Virus genome (UHGV): UHGV-0262927
Length of the DNA: 24,255 nt
Direction: 5' to 3' (one strand)
Origin: a virus
Of this stretch, positions 1,328 through 4,559 are shown in pieces. Position 1 is the stretch's first letter. Each line of letters starts with the position of its first letter. The notes beneath the pieces were generated by a model. That model saw only the letters and a program-made list of their open reading frames with translations, was not told where the DNA came from and did not search any database. The translations under genes were made by a program, and so were the position numbers.

Positions 1328-1380
1328 TTTTGAAAAGATCTTTATCTCTGTGCTTACGCACGGCTACGCCCTGACACTGA
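1328..1380. repeat. Conserved GC-rich block, copy 1 (ttttgaaaa...tgtgcttacgcacggctacgccctgacactga)
   Basis: Near-identical block recurs at 4509-4559; contains small hairpin GTGC-N4-GCAC; GC-rich island inside AT-rich DNA. Confidence 0.6.
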
Positions 1381-1471
1381 CATTTTGTATTTGATTTTAC
1401 TACTATGAGGTAATAAACAAGTGTATTCGGTCATAGCCAGATCTGTTTCCTTTTAACTTTTAATTCGGATC

Positions 1472-1487
1472 CTATGTTTAAACATAG
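1472..1487. promoter_or_regulatory. 16-bp palindrome CTATGTTTAAACATAG (variant of the iteron palindrome at 5069-5152)
   Basis: Perfect palindrome differing only in the central bases (TTTAAA vs TTCGAA) from the four copies upstream of the winged-helix gene. Confidence 0.4.
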
Positions 1488-1489
1488 CA

Positions 1490-1750
1490 TTCCCCATCTG
1501 ACATATAGCATTTGCTCTTAAACGTATAGGAAAACTATATCTTTAGTAGCAGCATTTCGTGATTGTTGCCAACAATCACTTTGCTGAACAGGGCTTGCCC
1601 CTGTTAATGATGGATTTATCCAATAAAAGATCGCATCGTAGACGCATATAAAGTAAAAGGAAAATTAATTAAACGCTCACAATAAAAAGCAGCGGTTCGT
1701 GATTGTTCGAAACAATCACTTCGCTGTAATAAAATAGTAAGGAAAATAAA
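1490..1750. repeat. Structured repeat unit copy A (~230 bp core 1498-1726) with two GTGATTGT-N5-ACAATCAC hairpins
   Basis: Aligns base-for-base with 4694-4920; hairpin 1 at 1550-1586, small hairpin ACAGGG-cttgc-CCCTGT at 1588-1604, hairpin 2 at 1690-1726; on the minus strand hairpin 2 is followed by TTTTTA (1684-1688), i.e. terminator-like. Confidence 0.7.
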
Positions 1751-2025
1751 GTTCGATAATGCCAGTATGTGCTATTTATATAAGGCACCAGCCAACTAAA
1801 AAGAAGAACTGTTTTCTATATTTTATCCTTTTAAAAATCATCCAAGGCTTCACTATTTAAATAATGAATAAGGAAAATGCTCTCAAACCAGCTATAGCTT
1901 AAAACAAAGTATGCACTTTCGGGAGTTAAAGTCCCAAATCCCGGTACTTAAGATGATAGTGATTATCAGCAATAAAGACTAAATCAGTGTTTTAAACAAC
2001 ATATTATAAGGGGCAATCTATAGGA

Positions 2026-2057
2026 GGTTAATGATGAAATGTTATTCATCATTAACC
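2026..2057. other. Perfect 13-bp inverted repeat (GGTTAATGATGAA / TTCATCATTAACC, 6-nt loop) at the 3' end of the Septu operon; possible terminator
   Basis: Read directly; lies 13 bp below the ptuB stop codon (2070-2072); T-rich stretch follows on the plus strand, none on the minus strand. Confidence 0.4.
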
Positions 2058-2069
2058 TTTCTACTTATA

Positions 2070-2735
2070 TTAAAAACCAACTCTTAAATCGGGATAATTT
2101 GCTGTTAGGAAACCATCCCCCAAGTAATGCCAACGCCAGAAAATTGAAAATGGATGTTCAGTCTTCAACATTGCCTCCAGCATTTCCTCGGCATCTCTCT
2201 TTCTAGAGTTACCTTTACTGGGATCTTTGAGTGTCATCCTAGCCTCAATAAATCTTGAATAATAAAAAAACATCTGTTCGATGAGACTTTCTCTACTTAT
2301 TTTTCTAAGACCAGTATTCTTCAAGTTATAGCACTCATTTAATAGACCCACAGTGCTGACTATGCTTAAAGTTGGTGGATTTACATTTGGAAGAATAACG
2401 ACATCATCATCGGGCATTGACGGCATCTTACAAATTATCTGGTTGAAGATATTAATAGATAAGTCGGTACAATCTAGAATATTTTTATGTCTATTACCTT
2501 TTATCCCATTGCATCTACTGCATGAATAAAATAAATTATCCCAACTGTACTTTAAATTGTCATTACCTTCATGTGGGATGAGATGCTCCACTTCAGCATC
2601 TTGAACTTCATTTCGCTCACACAAATAACATTTTTCGTGAAATAATGGTTTCAGAATTTCAGTAACTTCTGCATCATTATAACGATTCCGGGAAATACAG
2701 TCCGGGGCTGGATAAGTTCTCGCAACATTGAACAT
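2070..2735 (-). CDS. ptuB: HNH endonuclease, Septu PtuB-like (221 aa)
   Basis: Motifs CYLC ... EVEHLIPH ... N ... CSRCN (zinc-finger HNH); start codon 3 nt after the ATPase stop; AAGGAG Shine-Dalgarno 9 nt upstream of the ATG. Confidence 0.65.
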   Translation of the reverse strand: MFNVARTYPAPDCISRNRYNDAEVTEILKPLFHEKCYLCERNEVQDAEVEHLIPHEGNDNLKYSWDNLFYSCSRCNGIKGNRHKNILDCTDLSINIFNQIICKMPSMPDDDVVILPNVNPPTLSIVSTVGLLNECYNLKNTGLRKISRESLIEQMFFYYSRFIEARMTLKDPSKGNSRKRDAEEMLEAMLKTEHPFSIFWRWHYLGDGFLTANYPDLRVGF

Positions 2736-2738
2736 TTA

Positions 2739-3989
2739 TCATTCTCCTTCAGTTGCATCTTTCGCATCTAAAAGAGCATTCCTACCCATTAATAAAAATG
2801 TTCTTGATCTCATATCTAATTGATTTTCATATGGTTGAATGCTATTTACAACCTCTTGTAATTTATCCGTATCAATAATATCATCATTTATTAACAATGC
2901 TAATTTATCTAATTGCTTATTAAGCAGGTCTGATTGAGTATCGACACCAAGTAAACCTTTGACAATTGCCTCATAGGAATACATTGATAGATCTTCAAGT
3001 TGTTCATTCGTGCTTAGATCATAAATTATCGCATCATTCACAGATTGAACAACAAAAGGAGAATGAGTTGTGACAATGAATTGGATATTGGGGAAGGCAC
3101 TTACAAAAAATGAGAAAATTTTCCGTTGTAAAGAAACATGCAAATGAGCATCAATTTCATCAATAAATACAACCCCCGATAACTCATCAGATGTGATACC
3201 TTTAAGTTCAACTTTCATCAATAAGTCAGCATATATACTTAAAATAGACTGATAGCCTGATGAAAGTTGATTAAATCTATAAGGAGATTTGTTATCCTGC
3301 AAAATATAAAATGTTTGCTCCTCCGCATCATAATTAAGCTTTAATGAATCATCCTCAAATAAATACCGAAATTGTTTTTGTAAAAAATAAAACCAAGAAT
3401 CTACCTTATCCCCTTTAACTTTATCATTCTCTCTAGCAATTAAATGACTCCCATAGTTATAAAACGAAACCAAATAACGTTCAAATTTATTGCTTGTATC
3501 CTGAGATAAACTAACTGAAATCTCCTCATCCTTTAAAGTTTTTAAACTGTCAATAGTTCCTGAATGAGATATGTTATTTTCTCTTACAGCGCCGAAATAG
3601 CGTAATAAAGACTTTCTCTCATTGAAATCGATACAGTATTTATTTAAATCAGCTAGTTCAATGCGTATATCTCTCATTTTTTTTAACTGTTTTTCATAAT
3701 CAGCTATTTCCTGTTTCCAACTGAAATAATTTCTATCCGTCGGAGGTGTATGTTGCATCCAATTTTGTCTGTTTGATATTTCTTGTTTTATTTGATCATA
3801 TGTTTTATATTCATACTGTTCTATTTGAGCAGACACCTGCTCATATAGTAGTTTTAAAAACCTAGTTTTTCCACATCCATTCCCCCCTGTAATTATGACA
3901 TTTTTACCATCAACATTTATATTTATGTTCTTATTTGTATCAGGAAGTAACACATGTATATGTTTTATTACATTGCTTTTATTGAGCAT
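2739..3989 (-). CDS. ptuA: ABC/AAA-type ATPase, Septu PtuA-like (416 aa from ATG 3989; ORF track gives TTG 4004, 421 aa)
   Basis: Walker A GGNGCGKT, ABC-signature-like LSSGYQ, Walker B VVFIDEIDAHLH, H-loop VTTHSP; tightly coupled to the downstream HNH gene. Confidence 0.65.
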   Translation of the reverse strand: MLNKSNVIKHIHVLLPDTNKNININVDGKNVIITGGNGCGKTRFLKLLYEQVSAQIEQYEYKTYDQIKQEISNRQNWMQHTPPTDRNYFSWKQEIADYEKQLKKMRDIRIELADLNKYCIDFNERKSLLRYFGAVRENNISHSGTIDSLKTLKDEEISVSLSQDTSNKFERYLVSFYNYGSHLIARENDKVKGDKVDSWFYFLQKQFRYLFEDDSLKLNYDAEEQTFYILQDNKSPYRFNQLSSGYQSILSIYADLLMKVELKGITSDELSGVVFIDEIDAHLHVSLQRKIFSFFVSAFPNIQFIVTTHSPFVVQSVNDAIIYDLSTNEQLEDLSMYSYEAIVKGLLGVDTQSDLLNKQLDKLALLINDDIIDTDKLQEVVNSIQPYENQLDMRSRTFLLMGRNALLDAKDATEGE

Positions 3990-4198
3990 AATTTTTAATC
4001 TCAACGTTGATATATTAGATCATTTTAACACTTTAATCACCAGATTAAAACCAATATTATTTGATAATAATATATACAATAATTATAAGATTCAACACCT
4101 CTAATCCATTTGCAGAGTTATTAATTTTTATTTACCCATTCTGAAAAATCATAATTAATAAAATATAAAAATAATTTTATTCCCCCGTATATTCAAAC

Positions 4199-4313
4199 GC
4201 CGCATTTGCTCTTAAACGTATAGGCGAAATATATTTTTAGCAGCAGCACTTTGTTAGTGTTGCCAACAATCACTTTGCTGGACAGGGCTTGTCCCTGTTA
4301 ATGATAGTTTTTT
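4199..4313. repeat. Structured repeat unit copy B (partial, left half only; hairpin 1 degenerate)
   Basis: Matches the first ~115 bp of units A and C including the ACAGGG-cttgt-CCCTGT hairpin; lacks the second hairpin. Confidence 0.6.
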
Positions 4314-4508
4314 CAATTAATAATTTCTTCCATATAAATTACTGCCTGTAATCAGTTATAAGAGCTTTAAGCGTGAAGATGGTTATATTTGTTATCTTTC
4401 AGATCCCAAAGCCTTAGCAAGCTTCCTGTGCGGTTTATTAACAGTTTATAGAACACTTTTACTTATGCTTATTGATATTTATTTTTACCTGATACATTAA
4501 ATTATTAT

Positions 4509-4559
4509 TTTTGAAAATACATCCATTGTGCTGGCGCACGGCTACGCCCTTGACACTGA
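4509..4559. repeat. Conserved GC-rich block, copy 2 (ttttgaaaa...tgtgctggcgcacggctacgcccttgacactga)
   Basis: Matches 1328-1380; sits ~130 bp before unit C, as copy 1 sits ~110 bp before unit A. Confidence 0.6.

What the first reader, a model, noticed from the sequence alone, without database searches (positions are those of the whole stretch)
1328..4559. Second conserved GC-rich block duplicated ~110-130 bp upstream of repeat units A and C
A ~50-bp block (ttttgaaaa...tgtgct..cgcacggctacgccct(t)gacactga) occurs at 1328-1380 and 4509-4559, in the same order relative to the structured repeats but with unrelated spacer between. It is conspicuously GC-rich inside AT-rich DNA and contains a GTGC-N4-GCAC mini-hairpin. 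The flanking repeats may therefore be composite (~400 bp), which would fit a recombination or boundary role for the Septu-containing segment.
Basis: seen in the sequence. Interest (0 to 1): 0.45.

Follow-up and report, generated by a model that had tools for sequence, protein, structure and literature searches.

The report
Invariant DNA motif in ROD21-like islands
The duplicated GC-rich block is real: it is the almost invariant core of an undescribed ~0.5-kb non-coding module that sits upstream of the replication-like gene in every ROD21-like (EARL) genomic island examined. It predates the Septu defence genes and is independent of them, and its function is still unproven.

Summary
The core CGCACGGCTACGCCC occurs at 1357-1371 and 4535-4549, each preceded by TTTTGAAAA and a GTGC-N4-GCAC inverted repeat.

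The window carries an EARL/ROD21-like mobilizable island. In Escherichia, Salmonella, Klebsiella, Citrobacter and Yersinia islands and in metagenome contigs the elements always come in the same order:
- block;
- a 50-163 nt variable AT-rich spacer;
- the hairpin-rich "structured repeat";
- in 85 of 95 loci, a co-oriented Rep-like gene.

The 10-mer GGCTACGCCC was intact in 93 of 108 modules that were found without using it as a search term. The other 15 differ by one base.

A Septu-less relative keeps both blocks 485 bp apart. The duplication is therefore a tandem module duplication, and Septu sits in a cargo slot inside it.

The block is not:
- a dispersed REP-like element;
- a positionally conserved sigma-70 promoter;
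- a Frpo-like hairpin;
- an Rfam RNA;
- a canonical MOBQ nick site. A better oriT candidate lies next to mobQ.

Best reading (inferred, about 0.35): a sequence-specific DNA recognition site at the outer edge of the island's rep-proximal control/origin region. No searched paper contains its sequence.

The parts
1328..1336 (+). TTTTGAAAA palindrome, copy 1 (left element of the block)
   Evidence: Read directly. At least 90% conserved in 74 distinct metagenomic modules and in A2.
1350..1361 (+). Inverted repeat GTGC-TTAC-GCAC, copy 1
   Evidence: The pair is kept in 30 of 33 distinct copies, the loop is free to vary, the 3' arm is invariant, and there are no compensatory changes.
1357..1371 (+). 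Invariant core CGCACGGCTACGCCC, copy 1 (10-mer GGCTACGCCC at 1362-1371)
1372..1467 (+). Semi-conserved TGACACTGA, then the variable AT-rich spacer of module 1
   Evidence: Spacer GC is 0.22-0.34, and a CTG about 5 nt after the core is conserved.
1462..1749 (+). Structured unit A, complete. It holds palindrome CCTATGTTTAAACATAG (1472-1488), the conserved 35-mer GCATTTGCTCTTAAACGTATAGGAAAACTATATC, hairpin HP1 1549-1586, hairpin ACAGGG/CCCTGT 1588-1604, TGGATTTATCCA 1611-1622, a minus-strand intrinsic terminator 1632-1646, and HP2 1689-1726.
   Evidence: (D1, D2, D6).
2070..4004 (-). Septu cargo: ptuB (2070-2735) and ptuA (2739-4004)
   Evidence: PADLOC gives PtuB 1.3e-85 and PtuA 8.8e-147. Pfam gives HNH and AAA_21/AAA_15.
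4156..4321 (+). Unit B, a partial and diverged first half of the unit with no block upstream
   Evidence: (D1, 69% identity).
4322..4508 (+). Conserved 'beta' left flank of block 2 (non-coding)
   Evidence: Present in L002, L004, L005 and L010 at the same place.
4509..4517 (+). TTTTGAAAA palindrome, copy 2
4528..4539 (+). Inverted repeat GTGC-TGGC-GCAC, copy 2
4535..4549 (+). Invariant core CGCACGGCTACGCCC, copy 2
4658..4943 (+). Structured unit C, complete: HP1 4745-4782, minus-strand terminator 4828-4840, HP2 4883-4920
5067..5155 (+). Four palindromic iterons TCCTATGTTCGAACATAG upstream of the Rep-like gene
   Evidence: D3, I1, I17.
5277..6011 (+). Rep-like winged-helix gene, the homologue of ROD21 SEN1990
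   Evidence: Pfam HTH_36 at 5.9e-5, RepL at 20.8 bits (cut-off 20.3), DnaD_N. RefSeq calls it RepL. See also PMC10655114.
953..1222 (-). Conserved 89-aa backbone gene that diverges from block 1
   Evidence: Homologues share 76-99% identity in Escherichia, Salmonella, Klebsiella and Citrobacter.

Best explanation
Shown. The block is the nearly invariant core of a conserved non-coding module that belongs to the backbone of EARL (ROD21-like) excisable and mobilizable islands. The module reads TTTTGAAAA, one or two short inverted repeats, GGCTNCGCCCT, a variable AT-rich spacer, and then a hairpin-rich unit. It lies upstream of, and in the same orientation as, the island's Rep-like winged-helix gene and that gene's iterons. 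The two copies in the window come from a tandem duplication of this module that is older than the Septu insertion. Septu occupies a cargo slot inside the duplicated region.

Inferred. The block works as DNA, not as a structured RNA. It is most likely a sequence-specific recognition site for a protein or DNA-processing enzyme that all these islands share, or that the host supplies. It marks the outer edge of the rep-proximal control/origin region and sits next to an AT-rich stretch that could unwind. The hairpin unit next to it supplies structure-dependent signals, including a minus-strand terminator that stops cargo transcripts. I think an origin or establishment role (initiation or priming landmark) is somewhat more likely than a purely transcriptional operator, but neither has been demonstrated.
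For: - Family-wide invariance with diverged flanks: 24 distinct copies from five genera and 33 distinct copies in A2 with 15 invariant columns against 64% mean identity.
- Ascertainment that did not use the core: the neighbour-gene look-ups all show the core. In the metagenome scan keyed only on the upstream hairpins, 93 of 108 modules carry GGCTACGCCC and the rest are single substitutions.
- Fixed order and linkage to the unit.
- A Rep-like gene on the same strand, starting 638-1862 nt (median 762) after the block, in 85 of 95 loci.
- The Rep-like genes fall into two unrelated families, and their iterons differ between island types: CCTATGTTCGAACATAGG, TATAACTATAG and GTTTCCTGTACGGAAAC. The module stays constant. 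It is therefore not specified by the Rep type, as expected for the generic part of a replicon or control region.
- The block persists when the neighbouring 89-aa gene is deleted (L189). Its distance to neighbouring elements varies (17-35 nt to TTTTGAAAA, 50-163 nt to the unit), so it acts as a stand-alone site.
- The pattern is invariant stems with free loops, no covariation, and an invariant non-palindromic tail. This fits protein or enzyme recognition of DNA. The adjacent unit, by contrast, shows true compensatory changes.
- The spacer is AT-rich, with GC 0.22-0.34.
- The duplication predates Septu.
Against: - No binding factor has been identified.
- No consensus DnaA box is present. TTATCCA is followed by A, T or G and never by the consensus C.
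- The block lies about 500 nt from the iterons, farther than in textbook iteron origins.
- Fifteen invariant bases are more than a simple GC clamp would need.
- Deleting SEN1990 did not change the copy number or excision of ROD21, and ROD21 behaved as single-copy (PMC10655114). Autonomous replication of these islands is therefore unproven.
- Ten of 95 loci show no recognisable Rep-like gene within 3 kb.
- No transcriptome data were available, so an RNA-level role cannot be excluded.
Confidence: 0.35

Rival explanations
1. The block is a transcriptional control site: an operator or activator site for an island regulator, or the 5' leader of a leftward transcript that starts in the AT-rich spacer. 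It would control the backbone genes to its left or the Rep-like gene to its right.
For: - It lies in a divergent intergenic region between the 89-aa gene and the Rep-like gene.
- The region is packed with palindromes typical of operators: 8-5-8 GTGATTGT-N5-ACAATCAC twice per unit, 8-2-8 CCTATGTT-CG-AACATAGG, and TGGAT-TT-ATCCA.
- SEN1990 is predicted to be a wHTH regulator, and its loss changes gene expression (PMC10655114).
- Weak -10-like hexamers on the minus strand recur 26-38 nt to the right of the core in several flank types.
Against: - No promoter keeps a fixed position across all flank types, and AT-rich DNA gives such hexamers by chance. The scan of the region found 17 promoter-like sites against 24.4 expected.
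- The block's distance to the start of the 89-aa gene differs between flank types. The beta-type copy has no gene to its left. In L189 the 89-aa gene is missing but the block remains.
- The core is not palindromic.
Confidence: 0.25
2. The block is a relaxase (HUH) nick-type site, either a second oriT or a priming/termination site used by the island's MobQ relaxase. The hairpin unit that follows would act as a single-strand origin in the leading region.
For: - An inverted repeat is followed 7 nt later by CG/CCCT. This resembles the MOBQ consensus ...GTGCGCCCT (consensus quoted in PMC3832669). That the nick lies about 8 nt 3' of the repeat is from my own memory of RSF1010/R1162.
- The 3' arm and tail are invariant while the 5' arm tolerates changes.
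- The block is always co-oriented with mobQ, in 8 of 8 loci.
- Most genes to its right in this region, cargo included, point towards it, and a minus-strand terminator lies about 270 nt to its right.
Against: - A far better oriT candidate lies 100-300 nt upstream of mobQ. It is a long inverted repeat whose top is replaced with compensation, followed by a 36-nt invariant tail, conserved in 14 loci. This is the usual position for Ti-TraA/MOBQ systems with TraD.
- The 12-mer MOBQ core finds no match at the block even with 3 mismatches.
- The inverted repeat is only 4 bp.
- Two direct functional nick sites should yield alpha-left/R2 chimeras on transfer. None was seen; all listed top hits were two-piece matches.
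- My 10/11 similarity to the mobQ-proximal hairpin (p about 0.03) falls in that hairpin's non-conserved top.
- No primase domain was found in MobQ.
Confidence: 0.12
3. The block is part of a structured non-coding RNA that spans block and unit, or is the single-stranded seed of a small RNA.
For: - The neighbouring unit has hairpins with real compensatory changes and a conserved intrinsic terminator.
- The folding energy of the module is lower than that of shuffles, with z of -3.0 and -4.2.
Against: - No Rfam family matched at E up to 1.
- The block shows zero covariation.
- The 100-150 nt between block and unit is hypervariable in sequence and length.
- No complementary target exists elsewhere in the island at 3 or fewer mismatches.
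- Predicted structures are only local hairpins.
Confidence: 0.1
4. The block is a recombination or boundary site specific to the Septu cassette, or a generic dispersed REP-like repeat.
For: The two copies bracket the Septu genes in this window. Left- and right-flank types are reassorted around the block in different islands.
Against: - Both copies are present without Septu.
- The cargo junction lies in the unit, not at the block.
- No block-to-block junctions were found.
- There are only 1-3 places per E. coli genome, all chromosomal, and every retrieved hit lay at the same island position.
- 74 of the 93 exact 15-mer matches in IMG/VR are chance hits in GC-rich DNA with no module features.
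Confidence: 0.03

Closest known systems
Iteron-type plasmid origins (iterons next to rep, an AT-rich unwinding region, an adjacent GC-rich stretch; for example RK2 or pPS10, from general knowledge)
   Same: A Rep-like wHTH gene is preceded by four repeated binding sites. Upstream of these lies an AT-rich stretch bordered by a conspicuous GC-rich element. The generic part stays constant while the Rep-plus-iteron cassette is exchanged between relatives.
   Different: There is no consensus DnaA box. The iterons are palindromic and lie about 500 nt from the block. The GC element is a 15-nt invariant sequence with inverted repeats rather than a compositional stretch. Replication of these islands has not been demonstrated (PMC10655114).
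MOBQ-family oriT nick region (RSF1010/R1162 type; consensus NWACCNNTAAGTGCGCCCTYNN, PMC3832669)
   Same: An inverted repeat is followed by a short invariant single-strand-type tail ending in CGCCCT. The island encodes a MobA/MobL relaxase and TraD.
   Different: Only 8 of 11 nick-proximal bases agree. The inverted repeat has 4-bp arms rather than about 10 bp. The block is 4.6 kb from the relaxase gene and is present in two direct copies. A more canonical candidate lies next to mobQ.
Single-strand initiation (ssi/sso) signals and Frpo-type ssDNA promoters of conjugative leading regions
   Same: Clusters of conserved hairpins are repeated within a mobile element, depend on orientation, and lie upstream of genes that point back towards them.
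   Different: No long promoter-bearing hairpin forms. The block's own stems are only 3-6 bp. No experimental or sequence match is available.
REP/BIME-type intergenic repeats
   Same: A short GC-rich inverted repeat inside AT-rich intergenic DNA.
   Different: It is not dispersed: there are 1-3 copies per genome, and in every case examined they lay inside one island family at one position.

Membership tests
MOBQ oriT nick site | Match to the nick-region consensus TAAGTGCGCCCT | tested here: not met
   The block is not among the matches with 3 or fewer mismatches in the island. Only CGCCCT and one T agree, 8 of 11 (consensus from PMC3832669).
MOBQ oriT nick site | Inverted repeat a few nt 5' of the nick, with the proximal arm conserved | tested here: inconclusive
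   GTGC-N4-GCAC ends 7 nt before CG/CCCT and its 3' arm is invariant, but the arms are only 4 bp.
MOBQ oriT nick site | Position adjacent to the relaxase gene | tested here: not met
   The block is about 4.6 kb downstream of mobQ in L001. A conserved inverted repeat plus invariant tail lies 100-300 nt upstream of mobQ instead.
MOBQ oriT nick site | Cleavage by the cognate relaxase and mobilisation in cis | not testable with these tools
   Needs a nicking assay and a mobilisation assay.
REP/BIME-like dispersed repeat | Many dispersed copies per chromosome, unlinked to one element | tested here: not met
   261 of 5426 E. coli genomes have it, with 1-3 places each, all chromosomal. Every retrieved hit lay in an EARL island between backbone genes and the Rep-like gene.
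Sigma-70 promoter | -35 and -10 hexamers at a conserved position | tested here: not met
   CTGACA-18-TACTAT exists only in one flank type. No positionally conserved pair was found across 39 distinct modules.
Frpo-type single-stranded DNA promoter | A long imperfect hairpin that reconstitutes -35 and -10 in the stem | tested here: not met
   DNA folds of both strands of 1300-1760 give only short local hairpins.
Curated RNA families (Rfam 15) | Covariance-model match | tested here: not met
   No match in 1-6000 at E up to 1.
Iteron-type replication origin | Repeated initiator sites next to a rep gene | tested here: met
   Four palindromic repeats at 5067-5155 lie before the Rep-like gene. Other repeat sets accompany other Rep types.
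Iteron-type replication origin | AT-rich region bordered by a GC-rich element | tested here: met
   Spacer GC is 0.22-0.34 next to the 80% GC core.
Iteron-type replication origin | DnaA box TTWTNCACA | tested here: not met
   The conserved TTATCCA is followed by A, T or G and never by C.
Iteron-type replication origin | Supports autonomous replication | not testable with these tools
   The literature argues against it for ROD21 under the conditions tested (PMC10655114).
RfaH ops element (GGCGGTAGnnTG on the non-template strand) | Conserved GGCGGTAG with the essential T | tested here: not met
   The reverse complement of the block is GGGCGTAGCC. Natural variants change the central GTA to GAA, GGA or ATA. 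The ops consensus is from my own knowledge.

The most novel reading that the evidence does not exclude
The block and the hairpin unit together would define a previously unrecognised cassette-exchange or DNA-processing system of ROD21-like islands. The invariant GGCTNCGCCCT with its small hairpins would be the recognition site of an island or host DNA-processing enzyme, for example a nickase, primase or recombinase acting on single-stranded DNA. The repeated hairpin units would bound slots in which defence and other cargo genes (Septu, DotA/TraY-family genes, others) are swapped between islands.
Probability: 0.07. Interest if true: 0.8.

Novelty: new variant of a known kind. Interest (0 to 1): 0.4.

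Why it matters
ROD21-like (EARL) islands are common in enterobacterial pathogens. Module flank sequences matched 560-666 of 5426 complete E. coli genomes, and the family includes Salmonella ROD21 and Klebsiella ICEKp258.2. These islands carry virulence and defence cargo, yet their cis-acting sites for replication, transfer and regulation have not been mapped. None of the papers I read describes an oriT, an oriV or this module.

A 15-nt sequence that stays the same from Escherichia to Yersinia while its flanks diverge is a precise handle for experiments: mutagenesis, pull-down, nicking and replication assays. The module also marks the slot where cargo such as Septu is inserted. It can therefore serve as a search key for island cargo in genomes and metagenomes.

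Tried and rejected
1. **REP-like dispersal.** Rejected.
2. **Plasmid or phage origin of the module.** Only four plasmid records matched. All three that I inspected carry ROD21-like islands, and there was no phage match.
3. **Rfam RNA.** None.
4. **Frpo-like long hairpin.** None.
5. **Sigma-70 promoter using the TTGACA/CTGACA in the block.** It is not positionally conserved. By-eye checks of the sigma-54, sigma-32 and sigma-E consensus sequences (recalled from memory) did not fit.
6. **MOBQ nick consensus.** Not matched.
7. **Similarity of the block to the mobQ-proximal hairpin** (10/11, p about 0.03). Rejected as chance, because that part of the hairpin is replaced in other islands.
8. **Block-to-block recombination products.** Synthetic chimeric queries gave only two-piece matches in the listed top hits.
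9. **GATC/Dam clustering.** 117 observed against about 71 expected. The sequences are related, and the Yersinia and Citrobacter youngae modules lack it, so it is not used as evidence.
10. **Small ORF in the spacer** (22-28 aa in one flank type). By hand count there are 8 non-synonymous and 3 synonymous differences, and the ORF is absent in other flank types, so it is not coding.
11. **Primase domain in MobQ** (the RSF1010 analogy). No Pfam, NCBIfam or PDB sequence evidence.
12. **Resemblance to RfaH ops and lambda cosN.** Natural variants hit the positions that would be essential, so I rejected both by eye. The consensus sequences are from memory.
13. **Exact-pattern scan of species-representative genomes.** Only one hit, in Citrobacter youngae.
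14. **Literature.** No paper contains the core sequence. None reports an oriT or an sRNA for ROD21.

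
Full report
**1. The observation**

- Copy 1: TTTTGAAAA at 1328-1336, GTGC-TTAC-GCAC at 1350-1361, GGCTACGCCC at 1362-1371, then TGACACTGA.
- Copy 2: TTTTGAAAA at 4509-4517, GTGC-TGGC-GCAC at 4528-4539, GGCTACGCCC at 4540-4549, then TTGACACTGA.

The shared 15-mer CGCACGGCTACGCCC occurs only at these two places in the window and in the whole island, both on the + strand, even when three mismatches are allowed. Each copy lies 134 or 149 nt before the start of a structured repeat (D1 coordinates). The DNA between block and repeat is unrelated in the two copies.

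**2. Context**

Positions 1200-5200 are 100% identical to several E. coli chromosomes. There the region lies in an island next to tRNA-Ser. The island carries an integrase, pilV and a type IV pilin gene, traD, a MobQ relaxase, lipoprotein genes, a "RepL" gene, DUF4756, an H-NS paralogue, an AlpA-type regulator and DUF6387. This gene set matches the published Enterobacteriaceae-associated ROD21-like (EARL) family. The "RepL" corresponds to SEN1990 of ROD21 (PMC6035254, PMC10655114, PMC10763509).

The genes at 2070-4004 on the minus strand are Septu ptuB and ptuA. The order in the window is:
- the 89-aa gene (minus strand);
- block 1;
- unit A (complete);
- Septu (minus strand);
- unit B (first half only);
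- about 190 nt of conserved non-coding DNA;
- block 2;
- unit C (complete);
- four palindromic repeats;
- the Rep-like gene.

**3. The duplication is older than Septu**

A Septu-less relative (L002) has block 1, a first-half unit, the same 190-nt stretch, block 2 and a complete unit. The two cores are 485 bp apart. Compared with it, the window has an extra piece: the second half of a unit, Septu, and a first-half unit. The piece is inserted within unit sequence, as expected for homologous exchange between units.

The same two-module layout is found in other E. coli and in Salmonella (L004, L005, L010). Single-module islands occur in Klebsiella, Citrobacter and Yersinia. Another island holds a DotA/TraY-family gene and other genes between its two modules. 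The modules therefore flank a cargo slot, but they are not a property of Septu.

**4. The block always accompanies the unit**

- In E. coli complete genomes a 111-nt block query matched 261 of 5426 genomes, with 1-3 places each, all chromosomal.
- Every hit I retrieved lay in an EARL island, between backbone genes and the Rep-like gene. The three inspected "plasmid" hits are also EARL islands.
- In IMG/VR the exact 15-mer has 93 matches. Of these, 74 are chance hits in GC-rich DNA with no module features. The other 19 lie in AT-rich context, and 18 of them have the unit hairpin within 500 nt. The one exception is at a locus end.
- A metagenome scan keyed only on the two small hairpins upstream of the core, and therefore blind to the core itself, gave 108 true modules (74 distinct). 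All 102 with enough downstream sequence have the unit hairpin within 400 nt.
- The converse does not hold. Unit pieces occur without a block, for example unit B here and a hairpin pair upstream of mobQ in L008 and L121.

**5. Conservation pattern**

- The 15 core columns are invariant in 33 distinct copies from Escherichia, Salmonella, Klebsiella, Citrobacter and Yersinia. The alignment as a whole is 64% identical.
- In the core-blind sample, GGCTACGCCC is intact in 93 of 108 modules. The rest are single substitutions: AGCTACGCCC, GGCTTCGCCC, GGCTATGCCC, GGCTACGCCT and GGCTACGTCC.
- A more distant island has GGCTCCGCCC.
- One degenerate second copy keeps GGCTTCGCCCT but has lost the GTGC..GCAC repeat.
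- TTTTGAAAA is at least 90% conserved, and a CTG about 5 nt after the core is conserved.
- The loops of the small inverted repeats vary freely.
- The 5' arm of GTGC/GCAC mutates in 3 of 33 copies without compensation, while the 3' arm never changes.
- There is no covariation anywhere in the block. By contrast, the unit's ACAGGG/CCCTGT hairpin shows two-sided compensatory changes at three of its six pairs. The minus-strand terminator keeps its stem through different sequences.

The unit is therefore constrained as structure, and the block as sequence.

**6. What the block is not**

- It is not dispersed (section 4).
- It is not an Rfam family.
- It is not part of a long Frpo-type hairpin.
- It is not a positionally conserved sigma-70 promoter. 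The CTGACA-18-TACTAT that the scan finds at 1377-1406 exists only in one flank type.
- It is not tied to the 89-aa gene. Its distance to that gene differs between flank types, one flank type has no gene to the left, and in L189 the gene is deleted so that the block lies about 95 nt after the mobQ stop codon.

**7. The nick-site idea**

The island has a Ti-TraA-like MobA/MobL relaxase and TraD. The block resembles the MOBQ nick region in having an inverted repeat followed by ...CGCCCT (consensus in PMC3832669). It is always co-oriented with mobQ.

Several results speak against it:
- The resemblance is only 8 of 11 bases, and the 12-mer consensus does not find the block even with three mismatches.
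- The region 100-300 nt upstream of mobQ holds a much better candidate in 14 loci: a long inverted repeat whose top is replaced with compensation (CACTGCTACGCAGTG versus CACTCACTTCGTGAGCG), followed by the invariant tail GTGTGGGGTCTACCGACGGTTGCCTGCCGCAGGCTAA.
- My 10/11 match between the block and that hairpin lies in its non-conserved top, so it is chance.
- Two direct functional nick sites should produce chimeric single-module islands on transfer. Queries built as such chimeras found only two-piece matches in the listed top hits.

I keep this reading at about 0.12.

**8. What it most likely is**

The module is constantly upstream of, and co-oriented with, a Rep-like gene. In 85 of 95 loci that gene starts 638-1862 nt (median 762) after the block. 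Those genes belong to two unrelated families, a SEN1990-type winged-helix family and RepL proper. They come with different repeat sets immediately upstream, while the module stays the same.

This is what one expects if Rep plus iterons is an exchangeable specificity cassette and the module is the generic, Rep-independent part of the same control or origin region.

Within the module the block is a stand-alone site. It has variable distances to its neighbours on both sides, small inverted repeats with free loops, and an invariant non-palindromic tail, and it borders a variable AT-rich stretch with GC 0.22-0.34.

I therefore read it as a DNA recognition site for a factor common to all these islands or supplied by the host. 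It lies at the outer edge of the rep-proximal origin/control region. An origin or establishment role seems somewhat more likely than a purely transcriptional one. This step is inference.

Points against this reading:
- There is no consensus DnaA box.
- The block lies about 500 nt from the iterons.
- Deleting SEN1990 did not change ROD21 copy number or excision (PMC10655114).

**9. Novelty**

None of the searched papers contains the core sequence. The EARL papers I read do not describe this non-coding region, an oriT or an oriV. The element is a new, family-specific cis element of a known general kind: a conserved control or origin region of a mobile island. It failed the membership tests for every named family I considered.

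**10. Verdict**

- The composite-repeat idea is confirmed and extends to the whole island family.
- A Septu-specific boundary or recombination role is not supported.
- The function is unresolved. The best reading is a DNA-level recognition site (0.35). The rivals are a transcriptional control site (0.25), a nick-type site (0.12) and an RNA element (0.10).

Noticed in passing
window 1506-1540, 4702-4736 (diverged copy at 4199-4233): The most conserved part of the unit, GCATTTGCTCTTAAACGTATAGGAAAACTATAT, looks like a lambdoid nut site on the + strand. It has a boxA-like TGCTCTTAAAC (10/11 to rrn boxA; GCTCTTAAA as I recall lambda nutL), followed 3 nt later by a 5-bp stem with a GAAAA loop like boxB. 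Across islands the loop's G and the boxA G/C vary, and several stems carry mismatches. It could equally be a TTGCTC-18-TATATY promoter.
   Followed up: partly
L001 5790-5900, with equivalents in 13 other loci: A strong oriT candidate for EARL islands lies upstream of mobQ. It is a long inverted repeat whose top is swapped with compensation, followed by an invariant 36-nt tail GTGTGGGGTCTACCGACGGTTGCCTGCCGCAGGCTAA. Two conserved GC hairpins, CCCGCC-TTAC-GGCGGG and GCCC-TTAC-GGGC, lie about 150 nt further upstream.
   Followed up: partly
window 1632-1646 and 4828-4840 (minus strand): A rho-independent terminator on the minus strand lies inside each complete unit. It keeps its stem through different sequences in other islands (GCGTC/GACGC, GCGGC/GCCGC, GCGTT/AACGC). 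It would stop leftward transcripts from Septu or other cargo before they reach the block.
   Followed up: partly
window 5067-5155; L020 6640-6740; L022 6520-6600: The Rep-like gene is an exchangeable cassette. There are two unrelated protein families, and at least three different sets of about four palindromic repeats immediately upstream, behind the same constant module.
   Followed up: partly
L008 13180-13260; L121 8760-8830 (minus strand): A mini-unit, made of the 8-5-8 hairpin GTGATTGT-N5-ACAATCAC plus the CAGGG-type hairpin, also occurs without a block between traD and mobQ, beside an inserted cargo gene. This suggests that these hairpin pairs travel with, or mark, cargo insertion points.
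   Followed up: no
L189 600-1500 (minus strand): A deletion variant in which mobQ is followed within about 95 nt by the block, with no lipoprotein or 89-aa genes. It also has a second, degenerate block that lacks the GTGC..GCAC repeat but keeps GGCTTCGCCCT.
   Followed up: partly
window 11014-11065, 11465-11566, 12142-24255: A tRNA-like 3' fragment is present (an Rfam chance-family hit that reads GGGGGATTTGAACCCCC), although no complete tRNA is found. It probably marks the island's attachment site. It is followed by a sub-threshold IS009 RNA match and then by large minus-strand ORFs (690, 1231 and 853 aa) that look like lambdoid tail genes. In the 100%-identical reference genome, tRNA-Ser and mtfA follow instead.
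   Followed up: no
window 1760-1800 and homologues (e.g. L021 6430-6470): A further conserved hairpin, GGTGCC-N10-GGCACC, lies downstream of the second 8-5-8 hairpin, and a conserved tail (...GGGAGTTAAAGTCC..AATCCCGGTACTTAAG, window 1920-1950) lies before the RepL-type genes. Neither was analysed.
   Followed up: no
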